Positions 33,929 through 64,000 are shown, counted from the stretch's first letter. The stretch: 64,000 bases of DNA from Neomegalonema sp. (GCA_022760435.1 JALEFY010000037.1:211944-275943); one strand, 5' to 3'. Translations and numbers: made by a program. The notes: generated by a model not told the origin, from the sequence alone.

Positions 33929-34004
33929 ATACCGAATTCCTCTATGGCTGATATCAAGATTGTATGGGATTTTTTCTCTGTAATATCATACGGATACGGC
34001 CATC

Positions 34005-34976: not shown

Positions 34977-35015
34977 TTTCGCCGAGCTGATTTCGCCGAG
35001 TTGATTGCGCCGAGT
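34972..35015. repeat. ~3.5 tandem copies of a 14-15 bp unit between convergent genes
   Basis: gagctgatttcgcc / gagctgatttcgcc / gagttgattgcgcc / gagttgacc. Confidence 0.6.
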
Positions 35016-35038
35016 TGACCGGGCTGAATGAACCGGCC

Positions 35039-36747: not shown

Positions 36748-36772
36748 TCCTCTGCTCCCGATCCCTGGCGGC

Positions 36773-38337: not shown

Positions 38338-38352
38338 GCTGTGGTTCCTCCC

Positions 38353-42219: not shown

Positions 42220-42245
42220 GCTCACACTCTCTGGCATCTGGGCGC

Positions 42246-43394: not shown

Positions 43395-43570
43395 GCGGGC
43401 CTCCCTTTCGCGGCTGATCATCGCGATTGGGGGGCGGATGGGTCAAATATGAAAAAAGTCTGGGAGCTATACGGCAACGCGCTTGGCTTGCAGCGAGTTG
43501 GCTTGGAGCGACTTGCGTTAGCAACGCACGGCGGAGCGGGCAGTGCAGCCCCGCCGTTATCAGTGCTGCC

Positions 43571-48618: not shown

Positions 48619-48896
48619 TTATTTTCTGCCCACTAATCTCTCGCCGGCTAATCTGCTGCCGATGGTTGATATGTAAATTTATTTGGCGCCGCTTGAGCAT
48701 ACACCGTCTTGGCAACTCATTATTATCAATGTTTGCTGAGTTCAATCCCGCTTTATGACTTGAAGTATTTTAGTGGGTTAGCCTAGGTCACACGCAAAAT
48801 TTAACAGCAGTTATGGGATCGTTTATTCGCGACAATTCGAATTGGGCGGCTCCCCAGCTTATCCGCACACCGCCGCCCCCCAACCAATGCGCACAC

Positions 48897-48930
48897 AAAA
48901 AGCGGGGCCTTGTGGGCCCCGCTTGATAAA
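48897..48930 (-). terminator. rho-independent terminator for the minus-strand membrane-protein gene
   Basis: The reverse complement reads tttatcaagcggggcccacaaggccccgcttttt. Confidence 0.6.
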
Positions 48931-48968
48931 GACGCTGGCAGCAGCGTTGGTTTTGGCAATGGCTCGGC

Positions 48969-49580
48969 TCAGTGCCCTGTCGGCAGAACCCCGCCAAAAT
49001 CGCGCCGGGCTACCGCTTGCCCCACGATCCGATCCAGCAACAGATCTCCGATCCCCACCAGAGTGATCACCATGAAGGCGGTGGTGCCGAACCAGCTCAC
49101 GGTGAAGAACAGCACCAGACAGACCAGCGTCACCACCAGCGACATCCAGTCATTGCCCGAGATATCGCGCGCGGCGGTGGCCCGGATCACTTCGATCCAG
49201 CTTGCCAGAAAGCCGAAGATCACGAACAGGCTGGTCCAGGTGATCGGGAACTCGGTGCCGCTGACCAGCGGAACCTTGAACAGCGATGCGTCGAGCACGC
49301 ATTCAACTTGCTCAGCAACCGAGGCAGGCTGCACTTGGGCATCGGTAACGACAGCCGCCGTGCCTTCCCCCTCAACCGCGACGCCGTCCACCTGCTCGCC
49401 GATCGGAGCGGTGATCACGACATCGGTATTCGCGCGCTCGCACGCGTCATCGGCCATCGAGCCGCCCCAGACATTGGGCAGCGCAACAATACCGACATAG
49501 ACAACATAGAAAGCCGCCAGAAACAGATAGGCGGGCATACCGCGCCCGAACAAACGCCAGAACCAATCCATCGATCCCAC
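48969..49580 (-). CDS. hypothetical membrane protein
   Basis: 203 aa with hydrophobic helices at both ends and an acidic central region. A terminator lies immediately downstream. Confidence 0.45.
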   Translation of the reverse strand: MGSMDWFWRLFGRGMPAYLFLAAFYVVYVGIVALPNVWGGSMADDACERANTDVVITAPIGEQVDGVAVEGEGTAAVVTDAQVQPASVAEQVECVLDASLFKVPLVSGTEFPITWTSLFVIFGFLASWIEVIRATAARDISGNDWMSLVVTLVCLVLFFTVSWFGTTAFMVITLVGIGDLLLDRIVGQAVARRDFGGVLPTGH

Positions 49581-49715
49581 TCCCTTTCACTTGGCACCAG
49601 CGCCAGAAGCACACAGCGCGAAACAATCGGTTGCACTTAAGCCAATGACGCGCTTGTTGTCTATCGTGAAGCGGCTCGAGGGTTTTCGCCCCTGTTGCAT
49701 CGAGAAGGAGAGACC

Positions 49716-50471
49716 ATGCAGATCAGCATATCGGACCGCGAAGACCTGCCCATGGCTCGGCTGCCCGAGCGCCCGCTCTTCGCGATCGGAGATCTGCATG
49801 GATATAGCGATGCGCTCGATGCGCTGCACGGGCAGATCCGCAACACGGTGCTGCACGAACATGAAGGGCCGGTCGATCTTGTCTATCTTGGCGATTATGT
49901 GGATCGCGGCCCCGATCCGCTCGGCGTGCTCGATCGCGTGGCGACGGGGCTGGAGCTGCCCAATGTCACCGAACGCCGCCTGATCGGCAATCACGACCAG
50001 TTCCTGATGATGGCGGCGGCAATCGGCGGCTATCTCTATGATCCCGGTGCCTATGATGCCTGGGTGCGCTTTGGCGGCATGGAGACCTTGCAAGCGATGG
50101 CGCTGGAGGTCGATTGCCCGGCAGGCGAGGTCCGCGAAGCCCTCGGCCAGGACCGGGTGGCGATGCTCGAGGCCTTGTCGGTCGGCTTTCGCAGCGGCGA
50201 TATCTTCTGCGCCCATGCCGGGGTGAACCCCGACCGCCCTCTCTCCCAGCAGCGGCCCGATGATCTGTTGTGGATCCGCGAACCCTTCCTGAGCTGCAAG
50301 CAATGGCCGCATGAGGTGACGGTGGTTCATGGCCACACGCCGGGCAGCGAGGGCGTTTTCAGCCACCGGATCGGCGTGGATACCGGCGGCTGCTTTGGCG
50401 GCCCTTTCACCGCAGCCGAGATCAGCCCGCAAGGCTGGGTGCGCTTTCATCAGGTCCGCAAGGTGAGCTAG
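49716..50471 (+). CDS. PP2A/PPP-family metallophosphoesterase (Ser/Thr phosphatase / ApaH-like)
   Basis: Calcineurin-like motifs GDLHG, GDYVDRG, GNHD, and the HAGV/GHTP histidines. A strong RBS AAGGAGAG precedes the ATG at 49716. Confidence 0.85.
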   Translation: MQISISDREDLPMARLPERPLFAIGDLHGYSDALDALHGQIRNTVLHEHEGPVDLVYLGDYVDRGPDPLGVLDRVATGLELPNVTERRLIGNHDQFLMMAAAIGGYLYDPGAYDAWVRFGGMETLQAMALEVDCPAGEVREALGQDRVAMLEALSVGFRSGDIFCAHAGVNPDRPLSQQRPDDLLWIREPFLSCKQWPHEVTVVHGHTPGSEGVFSHRIGVDTGGCFGGPFTAAEISPQGWVRFHQVRKVS

Positions 50472-50486
50472 CAGGACGTGTGTCAA

Positions 50487-51389
50487 ATGCCATTCCCACT
50501 TTCACCGCAGAGCATCGATGCAATAGCCTTTATCATCAGCGGAGGCGCCGCCAATGCTGACGCGGCGCCTGTCGGGCTTTACCGTAGTGGTCCTAAGATC
50601 GAAAAGTTCATGCATGCATGCAACGTTGCCTTCACGCTCGACGGTTCTAGGGTGCCGTCGCTGGTTAATTGCTTGATCAGACTGAACAATGGTCACGAGG
50701 CGGCGACGGTTCTGCCTAGAATTATCGAAGCTGCCGCCGACCCACGCGACTTCGTGCATGATCCTGACCGCCACTCCGCTGTTTGCGACTATCTAAACCG
50801 TGCACTCCGCTTCGACGGATTCGAACTACAGAATCACGGTGTTAGGATGCGATTGCTCGAGGCTGGCAAAGGTGTACCGGTACTAACAGAACTAGCTGGG
50901 CTGTCAGAAGTTATCGACTTCGACACAGTGAGCCGTGATCTGGACCGAGCCCTCGAGAGCAGCCAAACGGATCCTGAAGATGCCGTTACTGCCGCATGCA
51001 GCACCATTGAGAGCGTGTGCCGTTCCATTTTGATTGATCTCGGTGAGCCTCTGCCCAAAAAGAAGGACGTTCAGGGGCTCTACAACGCGGTAAAGCAACC
51101 GCTCGGCCTTTCGACTGACCGGTCCGACATCGACCCCACAATTGCGAATGATGTGCTTCAGATACTATCCGGCCTTGCTAATGTTGTCCGCGGTGTTGGC
51201 GCCCTTCGTACGCACGGTGGCGATGCCCATGGCCGGGAGAAGGGCTATGCTCGAATTGACGCAAGAATCGCCAGGCTTGCCATTCATGCCGCAAGCACGG
51301 CAGCGCTCTTCCTCATTGAGACTTGGCAGCGAAAGTTCCCGGACCGTCCGCTGCCCAAAGCGACCGAGACTTCTCAGGATACCGATTGA
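50487..51389 (+). CDS. hypothetical protein with Abi_C-like (abortive-infection C-terminal-type) domain
   Basis: About 300 aa, with no TM and lower GC than its neighbours. The C-terminal block ...VTAACSTIESVCRSIL...NVVRGVGALRTHGGDAHGR...RLAIHAASTAALFLIETW resembles the Abi_C motif (recalled from memory, not HMM-confirmed). The start lies 7 bp (GTG 50478) or 15 bp (ATG 50487) after the phosphatase stop. Confidence 0.5.
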   Translation: MPFPLSPQSIDAIAFIISGGAANADAAPVGLYRSGPKIEKFMHACNVAFTLDGSRVPSLVNCLIRLNNGHEAATVLPRIIEAAADPRDFVHDPDRHSAVCDYLNRALRFDGFELQNHGVRMRLLEAGKGVPVLTELAGLSEVIDFDTVSRDLDRALESSQTDPEDAVTAACSTIESVCRSILIDLGEPLPKKKDVQGLYNAVKQPLGLSTDRSDIDPTIANDVLQILSGLANVVRGVGALRTHGGDAHGREKGYARIDARIARLAIHAASTAALFLIETWQRKFPDRPLPKATETSQDTD

Positions 51390-53319: not shown

Positions 53320-53527
53320 GTCTCAGTCCCGTTTTCCGGGGCAGCGGCAAACGCGGTGGCAGGGCCAGGCGCTCCGGCGCGGTTTGGACCCGCGGCCAAG
53401 GCTGCTCAAGGAAGTCTCGGAAGACCGAGGCGCGCAAAATGGTGATTTGTTCGGCTTAACACAAGGAGAAAACCCCTGAACGGCGAGAGGTGCCTTCAGG
53501 TGTCACCCAAAAGCATCTTCGCACGCG

Positions 53528-54808
53528 TCAGAGCAGGACCTGCACGCAGATCATCGCAAAGACCAGCGCCAGATCCGCCACCAGAAACGGGATGACCCCG
53601 GCAAAGATCTGCTCGAGCTTCACATGATCCTTGGCCACCGAGTGGATCACGAACACATTGAGCCCGACCGGCGGCGTGATCATGCCGATCTCCAGGAGCT
53701 TGGCGAGCAGCAGACCGAACCAGATCTTCTCAACGCCATAGCTCGCCATGAGCGGCAGGAACAGCGGCAGGGTGAGCAGCATCGCGCCGATCGGCTCGAG
53801 GAACATGCCGAGCGCGAGATAGACGAGCACGATCATCAGCAGCAGCGCGAACAGCCCCAGCTCCATGCCGCCGATCCAGCCCGAGAGCGCCGAGGACAGG
53901 CCGGAAAAGGCGACGAGCCGGGTGAACAGATTTGCGCCAATCGCGATCATGAATAGCGAGCCGCAGGCCAGCAGGGTATCGACGACGCTCTCCCGAAAAT
54001 CATGCCAACTCAAGGTGCCGCGCGCGACCGCAATCAGGATCGAGAACACCGCCCCGACCGCGCCAGCTTCGGTGGCGGTGAACAGGCCCGAGAACAGGCC
54101 GCCAAACACCACCGCGATCAGCAGCAGCACTGGCCAGACCTCACGCGTGGCCCGCAACCTCTCGGCCAGCGAGTGGCCTTGCGCGGCGGGCAGGCGCTCG
54201 GGCCAGCGCCAATAGACCACAAAGATCGCCGCGATATAGAAGGCGAGGGATAACAGCCCCACGACCAGCCCGCCCATGAAGAGCTGGGTGATCGAAACCT
54301 CCGCCTGAATGCCATAGAGAATGAGCAGGATCGAGGGCGGGATCAGCGCGCCGATGGTGCCACCCGCGGCGACAGAGCCGGTAGCGATGCGGATGTCATA
54401 GCCCTGCTTCTTCATCTCCGGCACTGCGATCCGGCCGATCGCGGCCGAGCAGGCAACCGAGGAGCCGGTCACGGCCGCAAAGCCGCTCGCCCCGAACAGC
54501 GCCGCGATCGCAAGCCCGCCCGGCAGCCATCCCCACCAGATCCGCGCGGCCTCGAACAACCCCTTGGTCAGTCCCGAATGATAGGCGACATACCCCATCA
54601 GCAAGAACATGGGCACAGAGGACAGGGTCCAGCTCGCGGCAAAACCGTAAGGCGCGGTGGACATCAGCGAGAAGGCCGGACGCCAGCCGACAATGCTCCA
54701 GATCCCGATCACCGAGACCACGATCAGCGACACGGCGACCGGCACGCGCAGCGCAATCAGACCGAGCACGCCCGCCAGGCAAAGCAGGCCGATGGTAAGC
54801 GGGTCCAT
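53528..54808 (-). CDS. dctM: TRAP transporter large permease
   Basis: 426 aa 12-TM protein of the DctM family. Confidence 0.92.
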   Translation of the reverse strand: MDPLTIGLLCLAGVLGLIALRVPVAVSLIVVSVIGIWSIVGWRPAFSLMSTAPYGFAASWTLSSVPMFLLMGYVAYHSGLTKGLFEAARIWWGWLPGGLAIAALFGASGFAAVTGSSVACSAAIGRIAVPEMKKQGYDIRIATGSVAAGGTIGALIPPSILLILYGIQAEVSITQLFMGGLVVGLLSLAFYIAAIFVVYWRWPERLPAAQGHSLAERLRATREVWPVLLLIAVVFGGLFSGLFTATEAGAVGAVFSILIAVARGTLSWHDFRESVVDTLLACGSLFMIAIGANLFTRLVAFSGLSSALSGWIGGMELGLFALLLMIVLVYLALGMFLEPIGAMLLTLPLFLPLMASYGVEKIWFGLLLAKLLEIGMITPPVGLNVFVIHSVAKDHVKLEQIFAGVIPFLVADLALVFAMICVQVLL

Positions 54809-55350
54809 CAGATCACCTCGTCATCATGCGGGCCCATCAGGGCGACATCGTCATGGGGGTCGTCGGAGAACGAGCCGCCGAGCACGGTGATCAGGCGCAA
54901 GACACAGATCAGCACCATCATCCCGAAGCCAATCACCGGGATCCAGTAGGCTGGCCAGGTAACGAAATCCATCGTCCCGGCCTCGACATAAGCGCCGCGT
55001 GCGGTCTTGGAGAGCGCGTCCGTCGCCGATCCCCAGGTCAGCAGCCCATAGGCGCCCGCCGAAAGCAGGAAGCCGAAAAAGAACACCACCGGCATCAGGC
55101 TCTTGGGCAGATAATCGGTGAAGATCGTCGCCTCGATATGCCGCCGCCGCAGCTCGGCATAGGCGACGGGCAGAAAGCTGACCGCGACCATGAAATATTT
55201 CGCGACCAGCTCGGCAGTGACCGGAAACCCGGCCCCCACCACATTTCGCAAGAAAACATCGATGACGATCAGGAGCGCCATCAGGCACAGGATCGCTCCG
55301 CCAAACAGAATTACCGTATGCGAGATGAAACGCTCCAGACCGCGCATCAA
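54808..55350 (-). CDS. dctQ: TRAP transporter small permease
   Basis: 180 aa 4-TM protein immediately upstream of dctM with an overlapping stop/start. Confidence 0.85.
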   Translation of the reverse strand: MMRGLERFISHTVILFGGAILCLMALLIVIDVFLRNVVGAGFPVTAELVAKYFMVAVSFLPVAYAELRRRHIEATIFTDYLPKSLMPVVFFFGFLLSAGAYGLLTWGSATDALSKTARGAYVEAGTMDFVTWPAYWIPVIGFGMMVLICVLRLITVLGGSFSDDPHDDVALMGPHDDEVI

Positions 55351-55356
55351 TGCCTC

Positions 55357-56457
55357 CTATTGGCCGTAAGTGGCGAGATCGACCTTCGACCAGATCTCGT
55401 CATGACGCAGCTTGGCGAGTTGCTCGGCGGTGGTGTCATCGCCCACCAGCCCGTGCCATTTCTCGACCAGAGCGAGATAGCGGGCGACCTTGTCGGCCGC
55501 ATTGGTCACGCCGCGCTTTTCGAGCGTCTCGGCGACCGAGGCCAGATGCGCCGCATCGAAATCGGCCAGTGCCTTTGTGATGCTCGCATCCGGTGCGTGA
55601 AAGCCAATGCCCTGCTCGGCCCCCTTGCTGCGCCCTTCGCGGTCTGCCTCGAGCCAGCCCAGCACATCGACGCCTTGCGCATATTGGGTGGCGCGCACCA
55701 GCGCGTCGCGCTCCTCGATCGACATGCGGTCCCACAGCATGCGGCTGGCATTGGTCACCGCCGCGCCGTTGAACACGCCGTGATTGATGTCGAGCACATC
55801 GGTCACAACATCATAGAGACGCGCGAGTTTCAGCTCGGCGGCCGAAGAATAGGTGCCGTCGATCACGCCGGAGTTCAGCGCTTCAAAGAGCTGGCTGGAG
55901 GGCATCTGAACCGGCTCGGCGCCCAGCGCCTCGACGGTGCGGGTAAAGACCGGCCCGGCGGTGCGGATGCGCTTGCCCTGGAAATCGGCCAGCGTGGTGA
56001 TCGGGCTGCGCGACAGGATGTTGTAGGTCGGCGTGGTGTCCGAGCCCAGATAGACCTGACGGAACTCGGCAAACTCCGCCTGGCACTCGGCGCAGGTGAC
56101 AATATACTCGGTCACCGCCGAGGAGATGGCGAGGTTGTTGGACCCGGCGATCAGCAGCTCGGCGGTCAGACCGCTTTCGGGATAATCGGCGGCGAAATAG
56201 GGCATGAGCAGCGCGCCAAGCTCGGTGACACCGTCACGCAGGCCGGTGTTCATCTCGTTGGGGGCAACCAGCCCGCCGGGGGTGTCTTGCAGCGTCCACT
56301 TGCCGCCCGTGTATTCCTCGAGCTTTTGCGCGATCGCCGGATAGACCTTGGTCGCGAGCACATGCGAGGGGCCAAAGCCGCTGGTGGCACGGATGGTCTC
56401 GGCCTGAGCGGTGGTGGCGGCAAGCAGGACCGCCGAAGCTAGCAATACTGATCTCAT
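55357..56457 (-). CDS. dctP: TRAP transporter substrate-binding protein (DctP family)
   Basis: Signal peptide MRSVLLASAVLLAATTAQA and a GGGAGGAAG RBS. It lies adjacent to dctQM. Confidence 0.8.
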   Translation of the reverse strand: MRSVLLASAVLLAATTAQAETIRATSGFGPSHVLATKVYPAIAQKLEEYTGGKWTLQDTPGGLVAPNEMNTGLRDGVTELGALLMPYFAADYPESGLTAELLIAGSNNLAISSAVTEYIVTCAECQAEFAEFRQVYLGSDTTPTYNILSRSPITTLADFQGKRIRTAGPVFTRTVEALGAEPVQMPSSQLFEALNSGVIDGTYSSAAELKLARLYDVVTDVLDINHGVFNGAAVTNASRMLWDRMSIEERDALVRATQYAQGVDVLGWLEADREGRSKGAEQGIGFHAPDASITKALADFDAAHLASVAETLEKRGVTNAADKVARYLALVEKWHGLVGDDTTAEQLAKLRHDEIWSKVDLATYGQ

Positions 56458-56565
56458 TTCTTCCTCCCGTTCGGGGTGCCGGATCTGGCAGTTTGCGCCC
56501 GGCATCGCCCTCGTTCTCTTGTCGTGTCGAGGATCGCGCCGGACGGGCCGCCGCGATCGGTGGTG

Positions 56566-58167
56566 TCAGCCGATCAGCGCCGCCCACATCGGGGCGCGCG
56601 CCTGCCCGAGCCGCTGGGCGCGCGTGCAAAGCCGGCGCATCAGTTCGGGATCGGCTGCCTGATCCGCCGCGGCGGCGATCCGGGACCAGACGGTCTGGAA
56701 GGCCAGTTCGGCGGTAAGCTGGAGAAAGGCATCGGCGACCGGGCCGGGATCGGCCATCGCCGCCACCTGGGCGCGCGCGCCCTGCCAGATCGGCAGGATC
56801 CGGGCGAGGGTCTCGCCGCAAGCGCTGGCCGCCTCGGCTTGCACGAAGGCCTCGAAAGCCTGGGCCGCGGCGCCGTTCTTGTAGCGCAGCAGCCTTGTCG
56901 CCAGGGTCATCGCGTGGATGCCATTGGCGCCCTCATAGATCGCGGCGATCCGCGCATCGCGCCAGTTCTGCTCGGCGCGGTATTCGGCGAGATAGCCGTA
57001 GCCGCCCAGCACCTGAATGGCCCGATCCGCAGCGAGGATCCCGGCATCCGTGCAGGCGGCCTTGCAGATCGGGGTCAGGAAATCGACCAGCGCCTCATCC
57101 GCCCCGCTTTCGAGCGCGGCCATGGCGATATGGCAGAGCCCGCGCCCGGCGATGGCGGCGATCTGCGCCTCCTCGATCATCCGCTGCACATCGCCATGCT
57201 GATCGAGCCGCGCTGGCGAGCCATCGGGCAAGCGGCCCTGCTGGCGCTCGGCGGCATAGCGGCGGGCGATATCCGCGCCGCGCGCTGCATGCGCGACGCC
57301 TTGCAGCGCCACGTCGAGCCGCGCGTGGTTCATCATCGTGAACATCGCCATCAGCCCCTGACCTTGCGCCCCGATCAGTTCGGCATGGGCGTTCTCGAAC
57401 ACCATCTGGCAGGTCGGCGAGGCGTGAAGGCCCATCTTCTCCTCGATCCGCGCCACGGAGACCGCGTTGCGCTGCCCGTCTTGCGCGCTAGGGCACAGGA
57501 ACAGCGACAGGCCCTTGACCCCGTCTTCCATGCTGCCGGTGCGGGCGAGCACGAGATGCAAGATCCCCTCGCTCATGTCCTGATCGCCGCCGGAGATGAA
57601 GATCTTCTCGCCGCTGAGGCGCCAGGCCGCGCCATCGGGCTCGGCGCGGGTCCGCACCACCGACAGATCCGAGCCCGCGCCCGGCTCGGTCAGGCACATG
57701 GTCGAAAGCCAGGCCCCCGAGGCCAGCAGCGGCAAGTAGCGCGCCTGCTGCTCGGGCGAGCCGAAATGCATCAGCGTGCGCGCGGCGCCCGGCACCAGGC
57801 CCGTGACCATCTGCAAGGATTGATTGGCGCCGGAGAACACTTCCGAGACCGCCGCCATGGTCAGCGCGTCCATGCCCTGACCGCCATGCTCGACCGGCAG
57901 CGTCAGCCCTTGCCAGCCCTGCTCGGCAAGCTGGGCATAGACCGCGCCAAAACCTTCGGGCATGCGCACCCGCCCCGCCACGAGCCGACACCCTTCGCGG
58001 TCCCCGGTCTCATCGCTCGGCGCGATCTCGCCCTGCGCAAAGCTCGCGAAATGGCCCAGCAGCTCGGCGGTGAGATCGTATTCCCAGTCCGGCAGCACCG
58101 CCTCGGCCCGCGCGACATGGCGCAGCGAGAACAGGATGTCATCCACCGGCGCGCTGAACGGGGTCAT
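56566..58167 (-). CDS. acyl-CoA dehydrogenase (long form with extra C-terminal domain)
   Basis: 533 aa with ACAD N/M/C domains plus a C-terminal extension. Confidence 0.85.
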   Translation of the reverse strand: MTPFSAPVDDILFSLRHVARAEAVLPDWEYDLTAELLGHFASFAQGEIAPSDETGDREGCRLVAGRVRMPEGFGAVYAQLAEQGWQGLTLPVEHGGQGMDALTMAAVSEVFSGANQSLQMVTGLVPGAARTLMHFGSPEQQARYLPLLASGAWLSTMCLTEPGAGSDLSVVRTRAEPDGAAWRLSGEKIFISGGDQDMSEGILHLVLARTGSMEDGVKGLSLFLCPSAQDGQRNAVSVARIEEKMGLHASPTCQMVFENAHAELIGAQGQGLMAMFTMMNHARLDVALQGVAHAARGADIARRYAAERQQGRLPDGSPARLDQHGDVQRMIEEAQIAAIAGRGLCHIAMAALESGADEALVDFLTPICKAACTDAGILAADRAIQVLGGYGYLAEYRAEQNWRDARIAAIYEGANGIHAMTLATRLLRYKNGAAAQAFEAFVQAEAASACGETLARILPIWQGARAQVAAMADPGPVADAFLQLTAELAFQTVWSRIAAAADQAADPELMRRLCTRAQRLGQARAPMWAALIG

Positions 58168-59054
58168 GCGCCGCCTCCCTGTTCGGCGATACCGAGCAGG
58201 CGCATCGCGTTCTCCTTCAGGATCAGCGGGCGCACCTCATCGCGAAACTCCGCCTTGTCGAAGGCGTCGAGCCATTTCTCCGGCGCGATCATCGGCCAGT
58301 CGGAGCCGAACAGCATCTTCTTTTTCAGCAGCGTATTGGCGTACTGGATCAGGATCTTCGGGAAGTATTTCGGCGACCAGCCCGACAGGTCGATATAGAC
58401 ATTGGGCTTGTGCTGGGCGACCGCGAGCGCTTCCTCCTGCCAGGGGAAGGATGGATGCGCGAGGATGATCGGCATGTCGGGGAAATCCACCGCCACATCG
58501 TCCATATACATCGGGTTCGAGTATTTGAGCCGCATCCCGTTGCCGCCCTTCATCCCCGAGCCGACCCCGGTCTGGCCGGTGTGAAACAGCGCTGGCTTGC
58601 CGGTCTCGGCGATCGCCTCATAGAGCGGATAGGCCATGCGGTCATTGGGGTAAAAGCCCTGCATGGTCGGGTGGAATTTGAAGCCCTGCACGCCGTGATT
58701 GGCCACGAGGTCGCGGGCCTCACGCGCGCCGAGCTTGCCCTTGGCCGGGTCGATCGAGGCAAACGGGATCAGGATGTCGCTGTTCTTGGCGCAGGCTTGT
58801 GCGACCTCGTAATTGTTGTAGCGCCGATAGCCGGTCTCGCGCTCGGCATCGACCGGGAAGATCACCGCGGCGATGTTCTGCGCCCGGTAATGCGCTGCGG
58901 TCTCATCGATGGTCGGCGGATGCGTCCAGGGCGCGCCGAAATACTTCGCCATCGTGGTTTGCAGATCGTCATAGCCATCATCGGCGTGGCAGCCGCAGGG
59001 CTCCTCGGCATGGGTATGAAAATCGATCGCCCGGACCTTTGAAAAATCAACCAT
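58164..59054 (-). CDS. amidohydrolase-2 family metal-dependent hydrolase
   Basis: 296 aa with HxH (IDFHTHA), later His residues and the conserved Asp (MLFGSDWP), consistent with PF04909. Confidence 0.8.
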   Translation of the reverse strand: MVDFSKVRAIDFHTHAEEPCGCHADDGYDDLQTTMAKYFGAPWTHPPTIDETAAHYRAQNIAAVIFPVDAERETGYRRYNNYEVAQACAKNSDILIPFASIDPAKGKLGAREARDLVANHGVQGFKFHPTMQGFYPNDRMAYPLYEAIAETGKPALFHTGQTGVGSGMKGGNGMRLKYSNPMYMDDVAVDFPDMPIILAHPSFPWQEEALAVAQHKPNVYIDLSGWSPKYFPKILIQYANTLLKKKMLFGSDWPMIAPEKWLDAFDKAEFRDEVRPLILKENAMRLLGIAEQGGGA

Positions 59055-59065
59055 TTAAGTTCCCC

Positions 59066-60886
59066 TCATACCCGGATCAGCGCCGGGTCCTCATTATCGT
59101 AGAGCCGCTCGAGAAGGTCGTGGCGGCGGGTGATGATCTTGCGCACATTGAGGCTGCCCTTGTCGGTGATCTCGTGATCCTTCACCGAAGGCGGCTCGGC
59201 GAGGATCAGCGCGCGGGTGATGCGTTTGGCCGAGCCGGTGGCGCTTTTGGCGAGCTCGCGTAGCGCCGCCTCGATCTCGGCCTGCAAGATGGCGTCGACC
59301 ACCGCGCCCTGCGCCTGGTTGTCGCCATGCACATGATCGGGCAGCGGGAAGATCAGAAGGCCGATCTCGCCGCGATCATGGCCGCAGATCACCACGTCCT
59401 GCACCAGCCCGCGCAGCGCCGCCAACGCCTCGAGCCGCAGCGTGCTGGCCTGCACCCAGGTGCCGGTGGTCAGCTTGAAATCCTCCGACACCCGGCCGTC
59501 AAAGCGCAGGCCCCGCGCCGCATCACCCTCATCGACAAAGCGCACCGCGTCGCCGGTGATCAGATACCCTGCGGCATCGAAAGCGGCGGCGGATTTGGCG
59601 GCGTCCTGCCAGTAGCCGCTCATCACGTTCGGCCCCTTCACCCGCAGCTCGCAGCGCATCTCGTCATCGGGCAGAAGCCGCGCCTCGACCCCCGGCAGCG
59701 GCACGCCGATCACGCCGGAGCGCCCGATCGGCTCATGCACCATCAGGCAGGCGGGGGCGGTCTCGGTCATCCCCCAGCTCGAGGTCATCAGCGGCAAGCG
59801 CCCGCGCTCCTCCATCGCGAAACGCTCGAGCGCGCTCCACACATCCTGCGGCAGCGAGGCACCGGCATAGAAGATGAGGTCAAGATCGCCGAAATAGGCC
59901 CGGCGCAGCGCGGCGTCATTCGCCATCGCCTGCACCAGCATCGCGAACCCGACCGGGACATTGAAGGCGAGGGTGCCGGCATGGGCGCGGATATTCTCCA
60001 GCGTGCGGGCAAAGCCGGCCTTGGTCGGCTTGCCATCGTCAATATAGAAGCTGCCGCCATTGGCCAGCATCATGTTGAAATTATGCGAGCCGCCGAAGAC
60101 ATGGTTCCAGGGCAGCCAGTCGAGCACCCGGTGCGCCCGCTCCGCGAGGAAGGGCAGCGCGCCGACGATCTGCGCCTGGTTGGCGCACATCATGCCATGC
60201 GTGGTCAGCACGCCCTTGGGATCGGAGGAAGAGCCCGAGGTAAACAGGATCTTGGCCAGCGTGTCCGGCCCGACCCGCGCATGCGCGGCCTCGAGCGCGA
60301 CCGACCCGTCGCCCTTCAGAAGCTCGGCAAAGGCCGTGACCGGGCGCGGGGCGCCTTCGGTACGGCTCGCCACCACTTCGACCCCGGCAAGCTGCGGCAG
60401 TGCCAGCGCCCCCGCATAGCGCTCGGCATCATCGACGAAAGCCATCGCCGGGGAGATCTTGTCGAACACATAAAGCAGGCGGCCATGCGCCTCGGGGATC
60501 AGCGAATATTGCTCGGCCAGGGGCGAGACCGGGATACCCGCATATTGCGCGCCGAGTGAGAGCAGGGCGTGATCGACGCTGTTGCCCGACAGAATCGCGA
60601 TCGGCGTCGTCCCATCGAGCCCGCGCCCGAGCAAGGCAGCGGCGATCGCTCGCACGCTTTGCAGCGCTTCGCGGTAGCTGACCTCTCGCCACCCTGCGCC
60701 CGAGCGCTCGGCCAGAGCGATGCGTTCCGGAGCCTCGCGCGCCCAATGGTGCAGCCAGACGCCGGTATTGCGGGCCACGGGGCCCAGGGGGTAGATTGAG
60801 CGCATGGTCATAGAGCCATCCGGCGCGCGCTCAAGCGTGACCGAATGTGCCGGGGTCGCCACCCCGACTTGCAATGTCCCAGTCAT
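59066..60886 (-). CDS. AMP-dependent CoA ligase, feruloyl-/hydroxycinnamoyl-CoA synthetase-like
   Basis: About 606 aa AMP-binding enzyme (LFTSGSSSDPKGV). Its length and context are typical of Fcs-type ligases. The start was chosen at MTGTLQVG. Confidence 0.8.
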   Translation of the reverse strand: MTGTLQVGVATPAHSVTLERAPDGSMTMRSIYPLGPVARNTGVWLHHWAREAPERIALAERSGAGWREVSYREALQSVRAIAAALLGRGLDGTTPIAILSGNSVDHALLSLGAQYAGIPVSPLAEQYSLIPEAHGRLLYVFDKISPAMAFVDDAERYAGALALPQLAGVEVVASRTEGAPRPVTAFAELLKGDGSVALEAAHARVGPDTLAKILFTSGSSSDPKGVLTTHGMMCANQAQIVGALPFLAERAHRVLDWLPWNHVFGGSHNFNMMLANGGSFYIDDGKPTKAGFARTLENIRAHAGTLAFNVPVGFAMLVQAMANDAALRRAYFGDLDLIFYAGASLPQDVWSALERFAMEERGRLPLMTSSWGMTETAPACLMVHEPIGRSGVIGVPLPGVEARLLPDDEMRCELRVKGPNVMSGYWQDAAKSAAAFDAAGYLITGDAVRFVDEGDAARGLRFDGRVSEDFKLTTGTWVQASTLRLEALAALRGLVQDVVICGHDRGEIGLLIFPLPDHVHGDNQAQGAVVDAILQAEIEAALRELAKSATGSAKRITRALILAEPPSVKDHEITDKGSLNVRKIITRRHDLLERLYDNEDPALIRV

Positions 60887-60973
60887 GATCGTTTCCTCCC
60901 AGAAACGGCTCCGGCCTTGCCGGATCAATGGAGCGCGCCGGTCTTGGTGCCGGTTGCGCCTGAAGTGCCTGTG

Positions 60974-61498
60974 TCAGGCCTCCCCTGTGTCTTCGTCATT
61001 GCCCTCGATCACCCCGAGAAAGCGGCGCAGCGCATGGCGCTCCTGCTCGCTCAGGCCGGCCTGAAGGGCGGCTTCACGGGCCTCGATCGCCGCAGCGATC
61101 CGGTCGTAGAGGCGCCGACCACGCAAGGTGACCCGCAGCGCGTAGCTGCGCCGATCCCCCTCGACCGGGTTGCGCACGATCAACTCGTCATTCTCGAGCT
61201 GATCGACGATCACCACCACCGAGGAGCGCTTGAGCGCCAGCGCCTCGGCCAGCGTGCTCTGGGTGAGGTCCGGGTTCTCGATCACCACCGCCAGCGCCGA
61301 GAAGGTCACCACCTTCAGCCCATGTTCGGCGAGCAGATCATTGACCTCGCGCTCGATGGTCAGATAGGCGCGCTTGAGCCGGTAGCCGGTGAAGGCGCGC
61401 AGCATCTGATCGCCGACTTGCGTGGGCTGATCGGCGCGGGTCACGGGCTTGCTCTGGCTGCTTTGGGTCGGTTTGGTCACTGGCCGGTCCTTCAACAA
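60974..61498 (-). CDS. MarR-family transcriptional regulator
   Basis: 174 aa with a winged-helix core (TQSTLAEALALKRSSVVVIVDQLENDELIVR). Confidence 0.88.
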   Translation of the reverse strand: MLKDRPVTKPTQSSQSKPVTRADQPTQVGDQMLRAFTGYRLKRAYLTIEREVNDLLAEHGLKVVTFSALAVVIENPDLTQSTLAEALALKRSSVVVIVDQLENDELIVRNPVEGDRRSYALRVTLRGRRLYDRIAAAIEAREAALQAGLSEQERHALRRFLGVIEGNDEDTGEA

Positions 61499-61507
61499 TG
61501 CGCGCGT

Positions 61508-62326
61508 TCAGCGAAACACGGGCGCGCGCTTTTCGAGAAAGGCGCGCAGCCCCTCTTCGGCATCGGGCGAGGTCTGGGTGAGCGCGGCGCACAGGCTCTC
61601 GGCGAACAGCCCTTCGGAGCGCGGCATCTCCCCGATCCGCTTGAGCGCCTGCACCATCACGTAGTTGGAGAGCGGCGCATTGTCGGCGACCTTCTCGGCC
61701 AGTTCGCGCGCCAGGGGCAGGGCCTCGCCTTCGCCGACGCTGTAATGGGTGAGCCCGAGGGCCAGCCCCTCATCCGCCCCGTATTTGCGGCCCGTGAGCA
61801 TCATCTCGAGCATCCGATCGGCGCCAAGGATGCGCCCGACATGCACGCTCGCCCCGCCGCCGACAAAGATCCCGCGCCGCCCCTCGGGAAGCTGGAAGAT
61901 CACGCTCGGCTCGGCGATGCGCACATGGGTGCAGGCGGCAAGCTCGAGCCCGCCGCCGATCACCGCCCCGGTCATCGCCGAGATCGTGATCAGCCCGCCG
62001 AACTGCACTTGCTCAACCACCGCATGCCAGCCGCGCGAATGGCGCATGGTGCCTTCGGCGTCGCGTGCGACATGCTCGGACAGATCGAGGCCCGAGCAAT
62101 AATGCCCGCCCTCGCCGGAGAGGATCACCACCCGCACACCCTCGGGCGGACGGGCATAAAATTCGGCGATCTCGCCCAGCAGCCCGTCGCACATCGCATT
62201 GCGCTTGTGGGGGCGGTTCATGGTCAGCTCGGCGATGCGGCCGCGATAGGAGACATCGAGATAGTCGCCCTTCTTGGTGATCGTCTCGGACGCCAGTTGC
62301 TCGGAACTCATCCTTCCCTCCATCAT
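61508..62326 (-). CDS. enoyl-CoA hydratase (crotonase family)
   Basis: 272 aa with the GEGGHYCSGLDL oxyanion-hole motif. Confidence 0.85.
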   Translation of the reverse strand: MMEGRMSSEQLASETITKKGDYLDVSYRGRIAELTMNRPHKRNAMCDGLLGEIAEFYARPPEGVRVVILSGEGGHYCSGLDLSEHVARDAEGTMRHSRGWHAVVEQVQFGGLITISAMTGAVIGGGLELAACTHVRIAEPSVIFQLPEGRRGIFVGGGASVHVGRILGADRMLEMMLTGRKYGADEGLALGLTHYSVGEGEALPLARELAEKVADNAPLSNYVMVQALKRIGEMPRSEGLFAESLCAALTQTSPDAEEGLRAFLEKRAPVFR

Positions 62327-63087
62327 TTGGGCTGCATCCGCACCGCGCCATCGAGCCGGATGACGGTGCCGTTGAGCATCGGGTTTTCCACGATTGCCTG
62401 GGCAAGTCGCGCATATTCGTCGGGATCGCCAAGGCGCGAGGGGAACGGGATCGCGGCGCCAAGGCTCGCGCGGATCTCCTCGGGCAAGCCGGCGCTCATC
62501 GGGGTCTCGAACAGGCCCGGCGCGATCGACATCACCCGGATGCCAAACCGGGCGAGCTCGCGCGCCGCCGGCAGGGTCATCGAGGCAACGCCGCCCTTGG
62601 AGGCTGCATAGGCCGCCTGGCCGATCTGCCCGTCCTGCCAGGCGACCGAGGCGGTGGTGATGATCACTCCGCGCGCGCCATCGGCATCGAGCGGCTCCAG
62701 CGCCGCCATCGCCCGCGCCGCAATGGCGAGCACCACATAGGTGCCGATCAGATTGACCCGCAGCGTGCGCTCGAAAGTATCAAGGCCGAGGGAGCCATCC
62801 TTGGGCAGGATCCGCGCGCCGGTGCCGATCCCGGCGCAATGCACCACGATCCGCGGCGCGCCGATCTGCGCCTCGGCCGCGGCGAAGGCCGCCTCGAGCT
62901 GGGCAGTGTCGCTGACATCGGCGCTAAGCGCGATGCCGCCGATTTCCCGAGCAATGATCTCAGCATTATGCGCGTCGCGATCGAGCACGGCCACCCGTGC
63001 CCCAGCGGCCGCCAGCCGCCGCGCGGTCGCAGCACCCAAGCCGCCACCCGCCCCTGTCACCAGCGCTGAACAGTTTTCGATCAGCAT
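62323..63087 (-). CDS. SDR-family 3-hydroxyacyl-CoA dehydrogenase-like oxidoreductase
   Basis: TGAGGGLGAATA Rossmann motif and a YAASKGG active site. The start was chosen at MLIENCSALVTGAGGG. Confidence 0.85.
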   Translation of the reverse strand: MLIENCSALVTGAGGGLGAATARRLAAAGARVAVLDRDAHNAEIIAREIGGIALSADVSDTAQLEAAFAAAEAQIGAPRIVVHCAGIGTGARILPKDGSLGLDTFERTLRVNLIGTYVVLAIAARAMAALEPLDADGARGVIITTASVAWQDGQIGQAAYAASKGGVASMTLPAARELARFGIRVMSIAPGLFETPMSAGLPEEIRASLGAAIPFPSRLGDPDEYARLAQAIVENPMLNGTVIRLDGAVRMQPK

Positions 63088-63348
63088 TTTTTGTCGTTTC
63101 CTCCGATTGAGGAAACGGTGCCCGCAAAAAATTGTTCGGTCAACGAACAATTTCAATTCGCCACTAAATTTTGCGAAATATCATTCCAAAACACGAAAAA
63201 CCGGCATCCCGGATGCCGAAAAGCGCCCGCCGCAGTTTCGCAATCGCTGAAACCGGCGGCACGGATCTCTCATGCGTGGGGGAGCTTCGTCCCAGGCAGC
63301 AAGCTGGCGCAGATCCAGAGAACCGCACGCTCATCCCGTTTCATCGGG

Positions 63349-63786
63349 TTAACCAGTCGTCGCCTCGAGGCTCGGAAATCGCGCCAACAGCGCCGCGCGC
63401 ACTGGCATCGGGATCGGGATCTTGGCCATCGGCTCGGTGGTGGCGAAGACCGAAATCGTCCGCGCGGCAAAGCAGGCGCGCTGTGCCTGCGCCCCCTCGA
63501 CAAGCATGGTGATCGAGCTCTCCCCGATCCGCTCGGGCATCACCCGACATTCGAGCACGGTGCGCGGGGTGATCGGGGCGCTGAAATCAATCTCGAGGCG
63601 AACGAAAGGCATGCCGTAGCCGTGATCGACATTCATCTGGTACCAGCCCTGCCCCTCAAGCAGATCGTCCCAGAACGCATCCAGCGCCTCAAGCGCGAAA
63701 TCGGCGATGCGGCCTGTATAGGCGATGCGCGCGGGGTCGCAGTCACCAAAGCGGATCGGGCGCTGCCAGATAAAGGGATCGGTCAT
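63349..63786 (-). CDS. hot-dog-fold acyl-CoA thioesterase (4HBT/YbgC-like)
   Basis: About 145 aa with the motif FGDCDPARIAYTGRIADF. The start was chosen at MTDPFIWQ. Confidence 0.75.
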   Translation of the reverse strand: MTDPFIWQRPIRFGDCDPARIAYTGRIADFALEALDAFWDDLLEGQGWYQMNVDHGYGMPFVRLEIDFSAPITPRTVLECRVMPERIGESSITMLVEGAQAQRACFAARTISVFATTEPMAKIPIPMPVRAALLARFPSLEATTG

Positions 63787-63896
63787 CGGGGCCTCACACG
63801 GGGAAGAGCCTGCTTTGGGCGCGCCTTGCGCTCGGGGAGCCGCCGCCCGGAATGCACCCAACCTGGGTGCATCTGGCCGGGCGGCGGGCCGGATTA

Positions 63897-64000
63897 CAGC
63901 TTTTCGACCAGTTCCGGCACTGCCTCGAACAGGTCAGCGACGAGGCCGTAATCGGCGATCTGGAAGATCGGGGCTTCCTCGTCCTTGTTGATCGCGACGA
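63897..64000 (-). CDS. etfA: electron transfer flavoprotein alpha subunit, C-terminal fragment (gene continues beyond the window)
   Basis: Minus-strand translation ...[34 protein letters not shown] is the conserved EtfA C-terminus. Confidence 0.8.

What the first reader, a model, noticed from the sequence alone, without database searches (positions are those of the whole stretch)
53528..63861. TRAP transporter + Fcs-like ligase / hydratase / SDR / thioesterase / MarR cluster: probable CoA-dependent beta-oxidative hydroxycinnamate (ferulate/p-coumarate) catabolism
Same-strand gene order: thioesterase, SDR, crotonase, MarR, ~606-aa AMP-ligase, amidohydrolase-2, long ACAD, dctPQM.

This matches the logic of reported beta-oxidative ferulate pathways: ligase, then hydratase, then 3-hydroxyacyl-CoA dehydrogenase, then thioesterase/thiolase, under a MarR repressor. 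A TRAP importer for the aromatic acid is added here.

The amidohydrolase-2 and ACAD genes are extra. They may extend the range to phenylpropanoate-type (saturated side-chain) substrates.
Basis: partly seen in the sequence, partly recalled or inferred. Interest (0 to 1): 0.55.

Follow-up and report, generated by a model that had tools for sequence, protein, structure and literature searches.

The report
Hydroxycinnamate side-chain cleavage operon with TRAP importer
This is an ordinary, widespread bacterial operon for importing plant-derived cinnamic-type acids and shortening their side chain to a benzoic acid plus acetyl-CoA.

Summary
The ten same-strand genes are real, in the stated order. The window comes from a Neomegalonema MAG, and NCBI already names the ligase "feruloyl-CoA synthase".

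Four enzymes are full-length homologues of the characterised Agrobacterium fabrum pathway:
- ligase: 39% identical to Atu1416
- crotonase: 47% to Atu1417
- SDR: 58% to Atu1415
- amidohydrolase-2: 72% to Atu1421, and 52% to Rhodococcus CouO

The amidohydrolase is therefore the core final enzyme. It cleaves the beta-keto-acyl-CoA to an aryl acid plus acetyl-CoA, so it is not an extra.

The 4HBT thioesterase probably lies outside the operon. A terminator-like hairpin and about 260 bp carrying a palindromic candidate operator separate it from the SDR. It was never found adjacent to the cluster. Six of 58 related loci hold a homologue, 7-10 kb away; in the two such loci I annotated, the intervening genes are benzoyl-CoA (box) genes.

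Ligase directly upstream of the amidohydrolase recurs in 50 of 58 loci. The 533-aa ACAD recurs in 29 of 58, so it is a frequent optional add-on. It plausibly admits saturated arylpropionates, but that is untested.

The TRAP system is a minority type, found inside the cluster in 5 of 58 loci. It is not orthologous to the commoner TRAP of these clusters.

Exact substrates cannot be read from sequence. Verdict: a new member of a known kind, of low interest.

The parts
63129..63153 (.). Perfect palindrome AAATTGTTCG-N5-CGAACAATTT, 42-66 bp upstream of the SDR start codon. Candidate operator of the cluster's MarR. Its centre reads TTGACC on the coding strand.
   Evidence: The identical core sits upstream of the SDR in the closest relative, L002. 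The relaxed motif TGTTC-N7-GAACA occurs 11 times in 1.53 Mb of related loci, and 8 of those lie less than 300 bp upstream of a cluster SDR, ECH or MarR gene.
62323..63087 (-). SDR, 254 aa from the ATG at 63087: predicted 3-hydroxy-3-arylpropionyl-CoA dehydrogenase (Atu1415 type).
   Evidence: Pfam adh_short. 58% identical to Atu1415 over 256 aa. Best solved relatives are type II 3-hydroxyacyl-CoA dehydrogenases, E 5e-78.
61508..62326 (-). Crotonase-family enoyl-CoA hydratase (Atu1417 type): hydrates the aryl-acryloyl-CoA.
   Evidence: Pfam ECH_1; NCBIfam PRK08150 at 325 bits, above its cut-off of 232. 47% identical to Atu1417, 45% to 3hin and 41% to DmdD 4izb. Both crotonase glutamate motifs are present (GGGLELA, LPEG).
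60974..61498 (-). MarR-family regulator embedded in the operon: predicted aryl-acryloyl-CoA-responsive repressor.
   Evidence: Pfam MarR_2. The best solved relatives are the two CouR repressors, 6c28 (E 1.3e-12) and 3fm5/5cyv (E 1.2e-9). Present in 49 of 58 related loci.
59066..60886 (-). Fcs-type aryl-acrylate:CoA ligase (606 aa from the ATG at 60886; the ORF extends to 60928).
   Evidence: AMP-binding + AMP-binding_C_3. PRK12582 at 643 bits. 100% identical to NCBI 'feruloyl-CoA synthase [Neomegalonema sp.]'. 39% identical to Atu1416 over 601 aa.
58164..59054 (-). Amidohydro_2 metal-dependent hydrolase (CouO/Atu1421/PipW type): cleaves 3-oxo-3-arylpropionyl-CoA to an aryl carboxylate plus acetyl-CoA.
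   Evidence: Pfam Amidohydro_2, E 5e-54. 72% identical to Atu1421, 52% to CouO and 54% to PipW. The HxH motif, three further His and D252 (equivalent to CouO D257) are conserved. Directly follows the ligase in 50 of 58 loci.
56566..58167 (-). 533-aa acyl-CoA dehydrogenase with a C-terminal extension: predicted 3-arylpropionyl-CoA dehydrogenase. This role is inferred, not shown.
   Evidence: Three ACAD Pfam domains. Best solved relatives are P. aeruginosa FadE 8pns and DmdC 6ijc (43% identity); the IYEGANG catalytic-Glu motif is present. Homologues of at least 50% identity occur in 29 of 58 related clusters, 17 of them directly after the amidohydrolase.
55357..56457 (-). DctP-family TRAP solute-binding protein. 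Probable start is M17 at 56457, followed by a signal-peptide-like N-terminus; the ORF extends to 56505.
   Evidence: Pfam DctP at 81 bits. Only 24% identical to the DctP of the R. capsulatus and Hoeflea clusters. 50-56% identical counterparts lie inside the same cluster in L006, L014, L020, L021 and L042.
54808..55350 (-). DctQ small TRAP membrane subunit.
   Evidence: Pfam DctQ. 48-53% identical counterparts in the five loci above.
53528..54808 (-). DctM large TRAP permease subunit.
   Evidence: Pfam DctM at 295 bits; TIGR00786 above its cut-off. 68-72% identical counterparts in the five loci above.
53472..53491 (-). Terminator-like hairpin 37 bp after the dctM stop codon: probable end of the operon.
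   Evidence: This is a consensus scan only.
63201..63219 (-). Terminator-like hairpin (TCGGCATCCGGGATGCCGG followed by TTTTT) between the thioesterase and the SDR: probable end of the upstream etfA-thioesterase unit.
   Evidence: This is a consensus scan only.
63349..63786 (-). 4HBT_2 hot-dog thioesterase (145 aa from the ATG at 63786). It is a neighbour and is probably not part of the operon. Possibly an aryl-CoA thioesterase.
   Evidence: Pfam 4HBT_2. Best solved relative is 2oaf, E 9e-35. Never adjacent to the cluster in related loci. 44-59% identical homologues lie 7-10 kb away in six loci; in L067 the gene directly follows boxC/boxB/boxA-like genes, and L052 carries the same box array.
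63894..64000 (-). 3' end of an etfA gene (electron-transfer flavoprotein alpha subunit), cut by the window edge.
   Evidence: Translation gives [34 protein letters not shown]. It is 94% identical to the C-terminus of the FAD-binding protein that follows EtfB on a Sagittula sp. P11 plasmid.

Best explanation
A nine-gene operon (SDR, hydratase, MarR, ligase, amidohydrolase, ACAD, dctPQM; about 63087 down to 53528 on the minus strand) imports cinnamate-type aromatic acids and removes two carbons from their side chain.

Proposed steps:
1. The TRAP system takes up the acid.
2. The Fcs-type ligase makes the aryl-acryloyl-CoA.
3. The crotonase hydrates it.
4. The type-II HADH-like SDR oxidises the 3-hydroxy intermediate.
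5. The CouO/Atu1421-type metal hydrolase cleaves the 3-oxo-3-arylpropionyl-CoA hydrolytically into the aryl carboxylate (vanillate, 4-hydroxybenzoate or benzoate, depending on the substrate) plus acetyl-CoA. No thiolase or thioesterase is needed.
6. The long ACAD most likely feeds saturated 3-arylpropionyl-CoAs into step 3, passing electrons to ETF. An etfA gene lies just upstream.
7. The MarR protein probably represses the operon from the palindrome at 63129-63153 and is released by the aryl-acryloyl-CoA.

Shown here: the gene families, the sequence homology to the characterised enzymes, the conserved active-site residues, the synteny, and the conserved position of the palindrome.

Inferred: the substrates, the ACAD and TRAP specificity, the regulation and the operon boundaries.
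For: Homology to the genetically characterised A. fabrum enzymes and to CouO/PipW, with pathway roles taken from PMC7797058 and PMC4737184. In vitro reconstitution of the related PipU/V/W/X set gives an aryl acid plus acetyl-CoA, with ferulate the best substrate (PMC12753220).

Metal-ligand residues, including the CouO D257 equivalent, are conserved. The SDR is closest to type-II 3-hydroxyacyl-CoA dehydrogenases. The hydratase has both catalytic Glu motifs. The MarR is closest to the two CouR structures.

NCBI names the ligase feruloyl-CoA synthase. Ligase-amidohydrolase adjacency holds in 50 of 58 loci, and the other genes recur. A TRAP of the same type sits inside the cluster in five genomes.

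The palindrome is conserved in promoter positions. Terminator-like sites flank the nine genes. A TRAP for these substrates has a precedent in R. palustris TarPQM (PMC3610893).
Against: No experiment exists for this organism, which is a MAG.

The ligase is only 39% identical to Atu1416, so substrate range is not fixed by homology.

The window holds no vanillate demethylase, pobA or pca genes to indicate which benzoate is produced.

The hydratase and the ACAD are about as similar to DmdD (41%) and DmdC (43%) as to anything aromatic-specific.

In Ruegeria pomeroyi a 'feruloyl-CoA synthase' gene lies in a benzoate-responsive box operon (bioRxiv 10.64898/2026.06.26.734754), so non-hydroxylated substrates are possible.

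No sigma-70-like promoter was found upstream of the SDR.

The DctP is only distantly related to any solved binding protein (best E 2.8e-17).
Confidence: 0.8

Rival explanations
1. The same enzymology, but the physiological substrates are non-hydroxylated cinnamate and 3-phenylpropionate (or other aryl-acrylates). The product would be benzoate, which is then activated and degraded by the aerobic benzoyl-CoA (box) pathway. The neighbouring thioesterase would act as an aryl-CoA safety valve.
For: In six related loci a homologue of the window's thioesterase lies 7-10 kb beyond the cluster. In the two I annotated (L052, L067) the intervening genes are a benzoate-CoA ligase (L052) and boxC/boxB/boxA-like genes. 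In R. pomeroyi a 'feruloyl-CoA synthase' is part of a benzoate-responsive operon with boxABC, badA-1 and two TRAP transporter genes. The window holds no van, pob or pca genes.
Against: The closest characterised enzymes act on ferulate, p-coumarate and caffeate (PMC7797058, PMC4737184). No box genes are visible in the window, and the source contig beyond 64000 could not be read. Substrate ranges in this pathway are broad, so this overlaps the main explanation rather than excluding it.
Confidence: 0.25
2. One reading: ligase, hydratase, dehydrogenase and then thioesterase or thiolase complete the pathway, and the amidohydrolase-2 is an accessory activity.
For: The thioesterase is on the same strand and adjacent. 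Hot-dog thioesterases do act on aryl-CoAs.
Against: The amidohydrolase is 72% identical to Atu1421 and 52% to CouO, the enzymes assigned to the final step (PMC7797058, PMC4737184). It follows the ligase in 50 of 58 loci, whereas the thioesterase was never found adjacent to the cluster and appears elsewhere in the locus in only 6 of 58. A terminator-like hairpin and the candidate operator lie between the thioesterase and the SDR. No thiolase is present in the cluster.
Confidence: 0.04
3. The cluster acts on non-aromatic 3-substituted propionates or acrylates (for example DMSP-derived methylmercaptopropionate or methylthioacrylate), or on short and medium fatty acids. This is suggested by the DmdC-like ACAD and the DmdD-like hydratase.
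For: The ACAD is 43% identical to DmdC (6ijc) and the hydratase 41% to DmdD (4izb). The related PipUVWX enzymes also turn over crotonate and 2-dodecenoate in vitro.
Against: The ligase is Fcs-type, not a DmdB-type or FadD-type ligase. A CouO-type C-C hydrolase and a 3-hydroxyacyl-CoA dehydrogenase have no role in the Dmd pathway. The MarR is CouR-like. The hydratase is closer to Atu1417 (47%) than to DmdD. No dmdA is nearby.
Confidence: 0.04

Closest known systems
Agrobacterium fabrum C58 SpG8-1b hydroxycinnamate pathway (Atu1415, Atu1416, Atu1417, Atu1421, repressor HcaR/Atu1422)
   Same: All four enzymes have full-length homologues here, at 58, 39, 47 and 72% identity. Both systems are controlled by a MarR-family repressor. 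The logic is the same CoA-dependent beta-oxidative deacetylation (PMC7797058).
   Different: Here all genes form one co-directional operon with the MarR inside it. A TRAP importer and a long ACAD are added. The tetrahydrofolate-dependent vanillate demethylase genes (Atu1418, Atu1420) and the GntR regulator Atu1419 are absent from the neighbourhood.
Rhodococcus jostii RHA1 cou genes (CouL, CouM, CouN, CouO, CouR, CouT) and R. ruber PipU/V/W/X
   Same: The final step uses the same CouO/PipW amidohydrolase-superfamily enzyme (52-54% identity, metal ligands conserved). The repressor is MarR-type; CouR is released by p-coumaroyl-CoA (PMC4737184).
   Different: The other enzymes are not orthologous. 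CouL is a 4CL-type ligase (28% identity). CouM is a 157-aa protein that gave no blastp match to the window's crotonase at E <= 1e-3, and the source paper notes no significant similarity between CouM/PipX and Atu1417. CouN is a different SDR (28% identity). I did not check the family of the cou transporter.
Rhodopseudomonas palustris CouAB/CouR with the TarPQM TRAP and CouPSTU ABC importers
   Same: A TRAP transporter is dedicated to lignin-derived cinnamates (PMC3610893). CouR is the best solved relative of the MarR here (6c28).
   Different: From my recollection, the R. palustris route uses a hydratase/lyase (CouA), not the SDR plus amidohydrolase. The window's DctP matches the PDB entries I recall as TarP-type (7nsw, 7nr2) only at E 5e-9 to 2e-7, so it is not a TarP orthologue.
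Rhodobacterales/Hyphomicrobiales 'feruloyl-CoA synthase' clusters (for example Rhodobacter capsulatus, Hoeflea ulvae, Actibacterium lipolyticum; at least 596 stretches in species-representative genomes)
   Same: The same core with the same order MarR-ligase-amidohydrolase. Identities are 72-75% for the ligase and 88-92% for the amidohydrolase. The ACAD follows directly in Hoeflea and Actibacterium.
   Different: The window places its TRAP genes at the 3' end and uses a minority TRAP lineage (24% DctP and 35% DctM identity to the common type) that is shared with only 5 of 58 loci.

Membership tests
CoA-dependent beta-oxidative hydroxycinnamate deacetylation pathway (A. fabrum Atu1415-1417/1421; R. 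jostii Cou) | Aryl-acrylate:CoA ligase (Fcs/Atu1416 type or CouL type) | tested here: met
   AMP-binding + AMP-binding_C_3. 39% identical to Atu1416 over 601 aa. NCBI name is feruloyl-CoA synthase.
CoA-dependent beta-oxidative hydroxycinnamate deacetylation pathway (A. fabrum Atu1415-1417/1421; R. jostii Cou) | Enoyl-CoA hydratase that hydrates without lyase cleavage (Atu1417 type) | tested here: met
   47% identical to Atu1417 and both catalytic Glu motifs are present. The best solved relatives are hydratases. Absence of lyase activity itself is not testable here.
CoA-dependent beta-oxidative hydroxycinnamate deacetylation pathway (A. fabrum Atu1415-1417/1421; R. jostii Cou) | NAD-dependent 3-hydroxyacyl-CoA dehydrogenase (Atu1415 type SDR) | tested here: met
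   58% identical to Atu1415. Type-II HADH structures match at E 5e-78.
CoA-dependent beta-oxidative hydroxycinnamate deacetylation pathway (A. fabrum Atu1415-1417/1421; R. jostii Cou) | Amidohydrolase-superfamily beta-keto-acyl-CoA cleaving enzyme (CouO/Atu1421) with its metal ligands | tested here: met
   72% identical to Atu1421 and 52% to CouO. The HxH motif, the His residues and D252 (equivalent to CouO D257) are conserved.
CoA-dependent beta-oxidative hydroxycinnamate deacetylation pathway (A. fabrum Atu1415-1417/1421; R. jostii Cou) | MarR repressor released by hydroxycinnamoyl-CoA | tested here: inconclusive
   A MarR gene is present and is closest to the CouR structures, though only at E 1e-12 to 1e-9. 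A candidate operator is conserved. Ligand response is not testable with these tools.
CoA-dependent beta-oxidative hydroxycinnamate deacetylation pathway (A. fabrum Atu1415-1417/1421; R. jostii Cou) | Growth on, or induction by, ferulate or p-coumarate, with the aryl acid as product | not testable with these tools
   The organism is a MAG and no expression or growth data exist for it.
Non-oxidative Fcs/Ech/Vdh (hydratase-lyase) hydroxycinnamate pathway of Pseudomonas and Acinetobacter | HCHL-type hydratase/lyase plus an adjacent vanillin (aryl-aldehyde) dehydrogenase | tested here: not met
   There is no aldehyde dehydrogenase in the cluster. The crotonase's solved relatives at E <= 1e-25 are plain hydratases. 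That HCHL structures exist in the PDB is my recollection.
TarPQM-type TRAP transporter for lignin monomers | DctP orthologous to TarP | tested here: not met
   The entries I recall as TarP-type (7nsw, 7nrr, 7nr2) match only at E 5e-9 to 2e-7. The best PDB hit overall is 4n6d at E 2.8e-17. The transporter may work like TarPQM, but it is not a member of that lineage.
DMSP demethylation pathway DmdB/C/D | DmdB-type ligase with DmdC and DmdD orthologues, and no SDR or C-C hydrolase | tested here: not met
   The ligase is Fcs-type. The ACAD is 43% identical to DmdC and the hydratase 41% to DmdD, which is a paralogue-level match. The hydratase is closer to Atu1417. An SDR and a CouO-type enzyme are present.
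Box-cluster-associated hot-dog thioesterase (applies to the 63349-63786 gene only) | 4HBT_2 thioesterase encoded at the end of boxC/boxB/boxA genes | tested here: inconclusive
   44-59% identical homologues occur in six loci; in L067 the gene directly follows boxC/boxB/boxA-like genes. In the window the gene follows etfA instead, and no box genes are visible.

The most novel reading that the evidence does not exclude
The window carries a distinct 'arylpropionate' variant of the pathway. A DmdC/FadE-like long ACAD (533 aa) would oxidise saturated 3-arylpropionyl-CoAs such as phloretate, dihydroferulate or 3-phenylpropionate, which are typical products of anaerobic or gut metabolism and plausible in wastewater, where I recall Neomegalonema being found. 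A divergent TRAP binding protein that is orthologous neither to TarP nor to the common cluster TRAP would import them. Neither this ACAD lineage nor this DctP lineage has, to my knowledge, a demonstrated substrate.
Probability: 0.35. Interest if true: 0.4.

Novelty: new member of a known kind. Interest (0 to 1): 0.2.

Why it matters
The value is mainly in correct annotation. In these very common alphaproteobacterial clusters the Amidohydro_2 gene is the pathway-defining C-C cleaving enzyme, and a nearby thioesterase should not be drafted into the pathway.

At least 596 stretches in species-representative genomes encode a close relative of this enzyme. That shows how widespread this route for lignin- and plant-derived cinnamates is in marine, soil and wastewater Alphaproteobacteria.

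Two parts have no assigned substrate: the recurrent long ACAD, and the two non-orthologous TRAP systems recruited to the same cluster. They are modest but concrete targets for biochemistry, for example to extend lignin-monomer funnelling to saturated phenylpropanoates.

Tried and rejected
- Thioesterase as the last pathway step: rejected on synteny, the terminator-like hairpin and the operator position.
- Hydratase/lyase (non-oxidative) route: rejected, because there is no aldehyde dehydrogenase and the crotonase resembles plain hydratases.
- Dmd (DMSP) pathway: considered because of the DmdC and DmdD hits, and rejected.
- TarP orthology of the DctP: not supported.
- Reading the source contig beyond 64000: both exact-sequence look-ups, for the NCBI ligase and for the amidohydrolase, found nothing on record.
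- Original papers: Campillo 2014, Otani 2014 and Frank 2018 are not held. The reference sequences were instead taken from machine-read alignment figures in the supplement of PMC12753220. They contain a few OCR errors, so the identities to Atu and Cou proteins are approximate.
- Pfam on the 34-aa EtfA fragment gave nothing. It was identified by tblastn against annotated plasmids instead.
- A literature search for the ligands of the nearest DctP structures found nothing usable.
- A Shine-Dalgarno-occluding hairpin in the SDR leader (z-score -2.9) is not conserved in the closest relative, so it was dropped.
- No sigma-70-like promoter was detected upstream of the SDR.

Full report
**Observation**

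All have coding-type third-position GC of 0.78-0.87.

Pfam assigns the families 4HBT_2 thioesterase, adh_short SDR, ECH_1 crotonase, MarR, AMP-binding + AMP-binding_C_3 ligase, Amidohydro_2, a three-domain acyl-CoA dehydrogenase of 533 aa, and DctP, DctQ and DctM.

The ligase is 100% identical to an NCBI protein named 'feruloyl-CoA synthase [Neomegalonema sp.]' from a 276-kb MAG contig. Neomegalonema belongs to the Rhodobacterales.

Likely true starts are:
- 63786 for the thioesterase
- 63087 for the SDR
- 56457 for DctP, followed by a signal-peptide-like N-terminus

**What the enzymes are**

The supplement of PMC12753220 prints alignments that contain the sequences of Atu1415, Atu1416, Atu1417 and Atu1421 (A. 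fabrum) and of CouL, CouM, CouN and CouO (R. jostii RHA1). These are machine-read and carry a few OCR errors, so the identities below are approximate.

BLASTP against them gives:
- amidohydrolase: 72% to Atu1421, 52% to CouO, 54% to PipW
- SDR: 58% to Atu1415
- crotonase: 47% to Atu1417
- ligase: 39% to Atu1416 over 601 residues, but only 28% to the 4CL-type CouL

In A. fabrum these four enzymes act in the order Atu1416, Atu1417, Atu1415, Atu1421 to turn ferulate into vanillate (PMC7797058). [quoted passage not shown] Purified PipU/V/W/X make the aryl acid plus acetyl-CoA in vitro, with ferulate the best substrate tested.

The window protein keeps the HxH motif, the further histidines and D252, which aligns with the position numbered 257 in PipW and CouO. 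From my recollection of Otani 2014, CouO Asp257 is the proposed metal ligand.

The SDR's best solved relatives are type-II 3-hydroxyacyl-CoA dehydrogenases (E 5e-78). The crotonase has both catalytic glutamate motifs, and its nearest structures are hydratases (3hin 45%, DmdD 41%).

So the amidohydrolase is not 'extra'. It is the enzyme that defines the pathway, and it makes a thiolase or thioesterase unnecessary.

**The thioesterase**

The thioesterase follows the 3' end of an etfA gene. Two features separate it from the SDR:
- a terminator-like hairpin with a T-run at 63219-63201
- about 260 bp of intergenic DNA containing a perfect 10+10 palindrome

It has no adjacent counterpart in the four neighbourhoods fetched through ligase homologues.

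Among 58 related loci with at least 6 kb on both sides, only six hold a homologue of at least 40% identity. In those it lies 7-10 kb beyond the cluster. In L067 it directly follows boxC/boxB/boxA-like genes. L052 carries the same array, preceded by a benzoate-CoA ligase.

I therefore treat the thioesterase as a neighbour, possibly an aryl-CoA thioesterase, and not as a pathway step.

**Synteny**

In the 58 loci with enough flank:
- ligase directly upstream of the amidohydrolase: 50
- MarR: 49
- crotonase: 47
- SDR: 34
- long ACAD at 50% identity or more: 29, of which 17 are directly adjacent
- any TRAP system: 33

The window's TRAP lineage (DctP at least 45% and DctM at least 60% identical) occurs in only five loci: L006, L014, L020, L021 and L042. 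There it again sits inside the cluster, in the order MarR-dctPQM-SDR-ECH-ligase-amidohydrolase-ACAD.

The commoner TRAP of these clusters is only 24% (DctP) and 35% (DctM) identical to the window's. Two TRAP lineages have therefore been recruited independently.

The window's DctP matches solved binding proteins only weakly (best E 2.8e-17). It is not close to the entries I recall as TarP-type. TRAP uptake of coumarate and ferulate has a precedent in R. palustris TarPQM (PMC3610893).

**The ACAD**

The ACAD belongs to the long ACADs, whose solved relatives are about 600 aa. Its best solved relatives are P. aeruginosa FadE (8pns) and the MMPA-CoA dehydrogenase DmdC (6ijc, 43% identity). It keeps the IYEGANG motif; the 8pns and 8pu5 sequences differ at this Glu (E to A), which I read as the catalytic-base mutant.

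DmdC oxidises a 3-substituted propionyl-CoA to the 3-substituted acryloyl-CoA. The analogous reaction on 3-arylpropionyl-CoA would feed the hydratase here. The recurrence of this ACAD directly after the amidohydrolase, and the etfA gene next door, fit that idea.

From my recollection, hcaD in the Acinetobacter hca cluster is a precedent. PMC3560178 says only that hcaD encodes an acyl-CoA dehydrogenase that 'could be responsible for' a beta-oxidative route. The role remains an inference.

**Regulation**

The MarR's best solved relatives are the two CouR repressors of coumarate catabolism (6c28, E 1.3e-12; 3fm5/5cyv, E 1.2e-9). RHA1 CouR is released from DNA by p-coumaroyl-CoA (PMC4737184).

The palindrome AAATTGTTCG-N5-CGAACAATTT lies 42-66 bp upstream of the SDR start codon. 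Its core is identical upstream of the SDR in the closest relative, L002.

The relaxed motif TGTTC-N7-GAACA occurs 11 times in 1.53 Mb of related loci. Eight of those lie less than 300 bp upstream of a cluster SDR, ECH or MarR gene.

The palindrome's centre is the -35-like TTGACC. This recalls the CouR box, which overlaps the -35 box in RHA1. However, no convincing -10 element was found in the window.

A terminator-like hairpin follows dctM at 53491-53472. The most likely unit is therefore nine genes, from the SDR to dctM.

**Substrate uncertainty**

The window contains no van, pob or pca genes, and I could not read the contig beyond 64000.

In several roseobacter loci the cluster continues into box genes. 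In R. pomeroyi a 'feruloyl-CoA synthase' lies in a benzoate-responsive operon with two TRAP transporter genes, boxABC and badA-1.

Cinnamate or 3-phenylpropionate giving benzoate is therefore a live alternative to ferulate or p-coumarate giving vanillate or 4-hydroxybenzoate. The two are not exclusive.

A DMSP/MMPA role is unlikely. The ligase is Fcs-type, and an SDR and a CouO-type hydrolase have no place in that pathway.

**Verdict**

It is wrong about which gene performs the last step and about the thioesterase belonging to the cluster.

The cluster is a new member of a known and very widespread kind, already named as such by NCBI for the ligase. Its only mildly unusual features are the minority TRAP lineage and the long ACAD, neither of which has a demonstrated substrate.

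Noticed in passing
window 47212-51389: A lower-GC stretch (0.56-0.60) holds three notable genes: a KAP-family P-loop NTPase (47212-48618, minus strand) that matches PADLOC candidate system PDC-S20 at E 4.8e-83, an Abi_C/AbiJ-like protein (50478-51389, plus strand, E 1.5e-16) and a metallophosphoesterase (49695-50471). It looks like a small anti-phage defence islet beside the operon.
   Followed up: partly
window 29084-43421: A second, unrelated CoA-thioester cluster. It holds an SCP-x-type thiolase (36773-37942) with a DUF35/ChsH2 OB-fold partner (37939-38337), a crotonase (38353-39141), an NMO-family oxidoreductase (39138-40103), two MaoC hydratases, an ACAD (32663-33928), a family III CoA-transferase (42246-43421), a LysR regulator and a branched-chain-type ABC importer. 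Substrate unknown.
   Followed up: no
L005-L084 (amidohydrolase at about 10001-10870 in each locus): The CouO/Atu1421-type amidohydrolase is unusually conserved: 78-92% identical across 80 species, against 40-75% for the adjacent ligase where one was found, and 32-59% for the MarR. Close copies (92% and 81%) occur in MAGs labelled Thiothrix (L006) and Gammaproteobacteria (L070). This suggests horizontal transfer or binning errors.
   Followed up: partly
L052 10870-20867; L067 13810-18632: In these roseobacter loci the cluster continues on the same strand. L052 adds DUF3237, the ACAD, a PnbB-like gene, a benzoate-CoA ligase, an alpha/beta hydrolase and boxC/boxB/boxA-like genes. In L067 a 4HBT_2 thioesterase homologous to the window's directly follows the boxA-like gene. 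L075, L077, L080 and L084 have a thioesterase hit at the same distance, but I did not annotate the genes between.
   Followed up: partly
window 63095-63117: The inverted repeat CGTTTCCTC / GAGGAAACG in the SDR leader would pair with the Shine-Dalgarno sequence. The fold energy is -26.2 kcal/mol for the 91-nt leader, z-score -2.9. The upstream arm is not conserved in the closest relative L002, so it is probably incidental.
   Followed up: yes
window 63894-64000: The window ends inside an etfA gene, of which 34 C-terminal residues are visible. ETF genes directly upstream of the thioesterase and the operon could supply the electron acceptor for the long ACAD.
   Followed up: partly
L003 2447-8465 (Hoeflea ulvae): Upstream of the Hoeflea version of the cluster, a TRAP system is followed by an aldehyde dehydrogenase and a thiamine-diphosphate enzyme. 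Then come a TGTTC-N7-GAACA palindrome and the ECH-MarR-ligase-amidohydrolase-ACAD genes. This may be an additional aromatic side-chain module.
   Followed up: no
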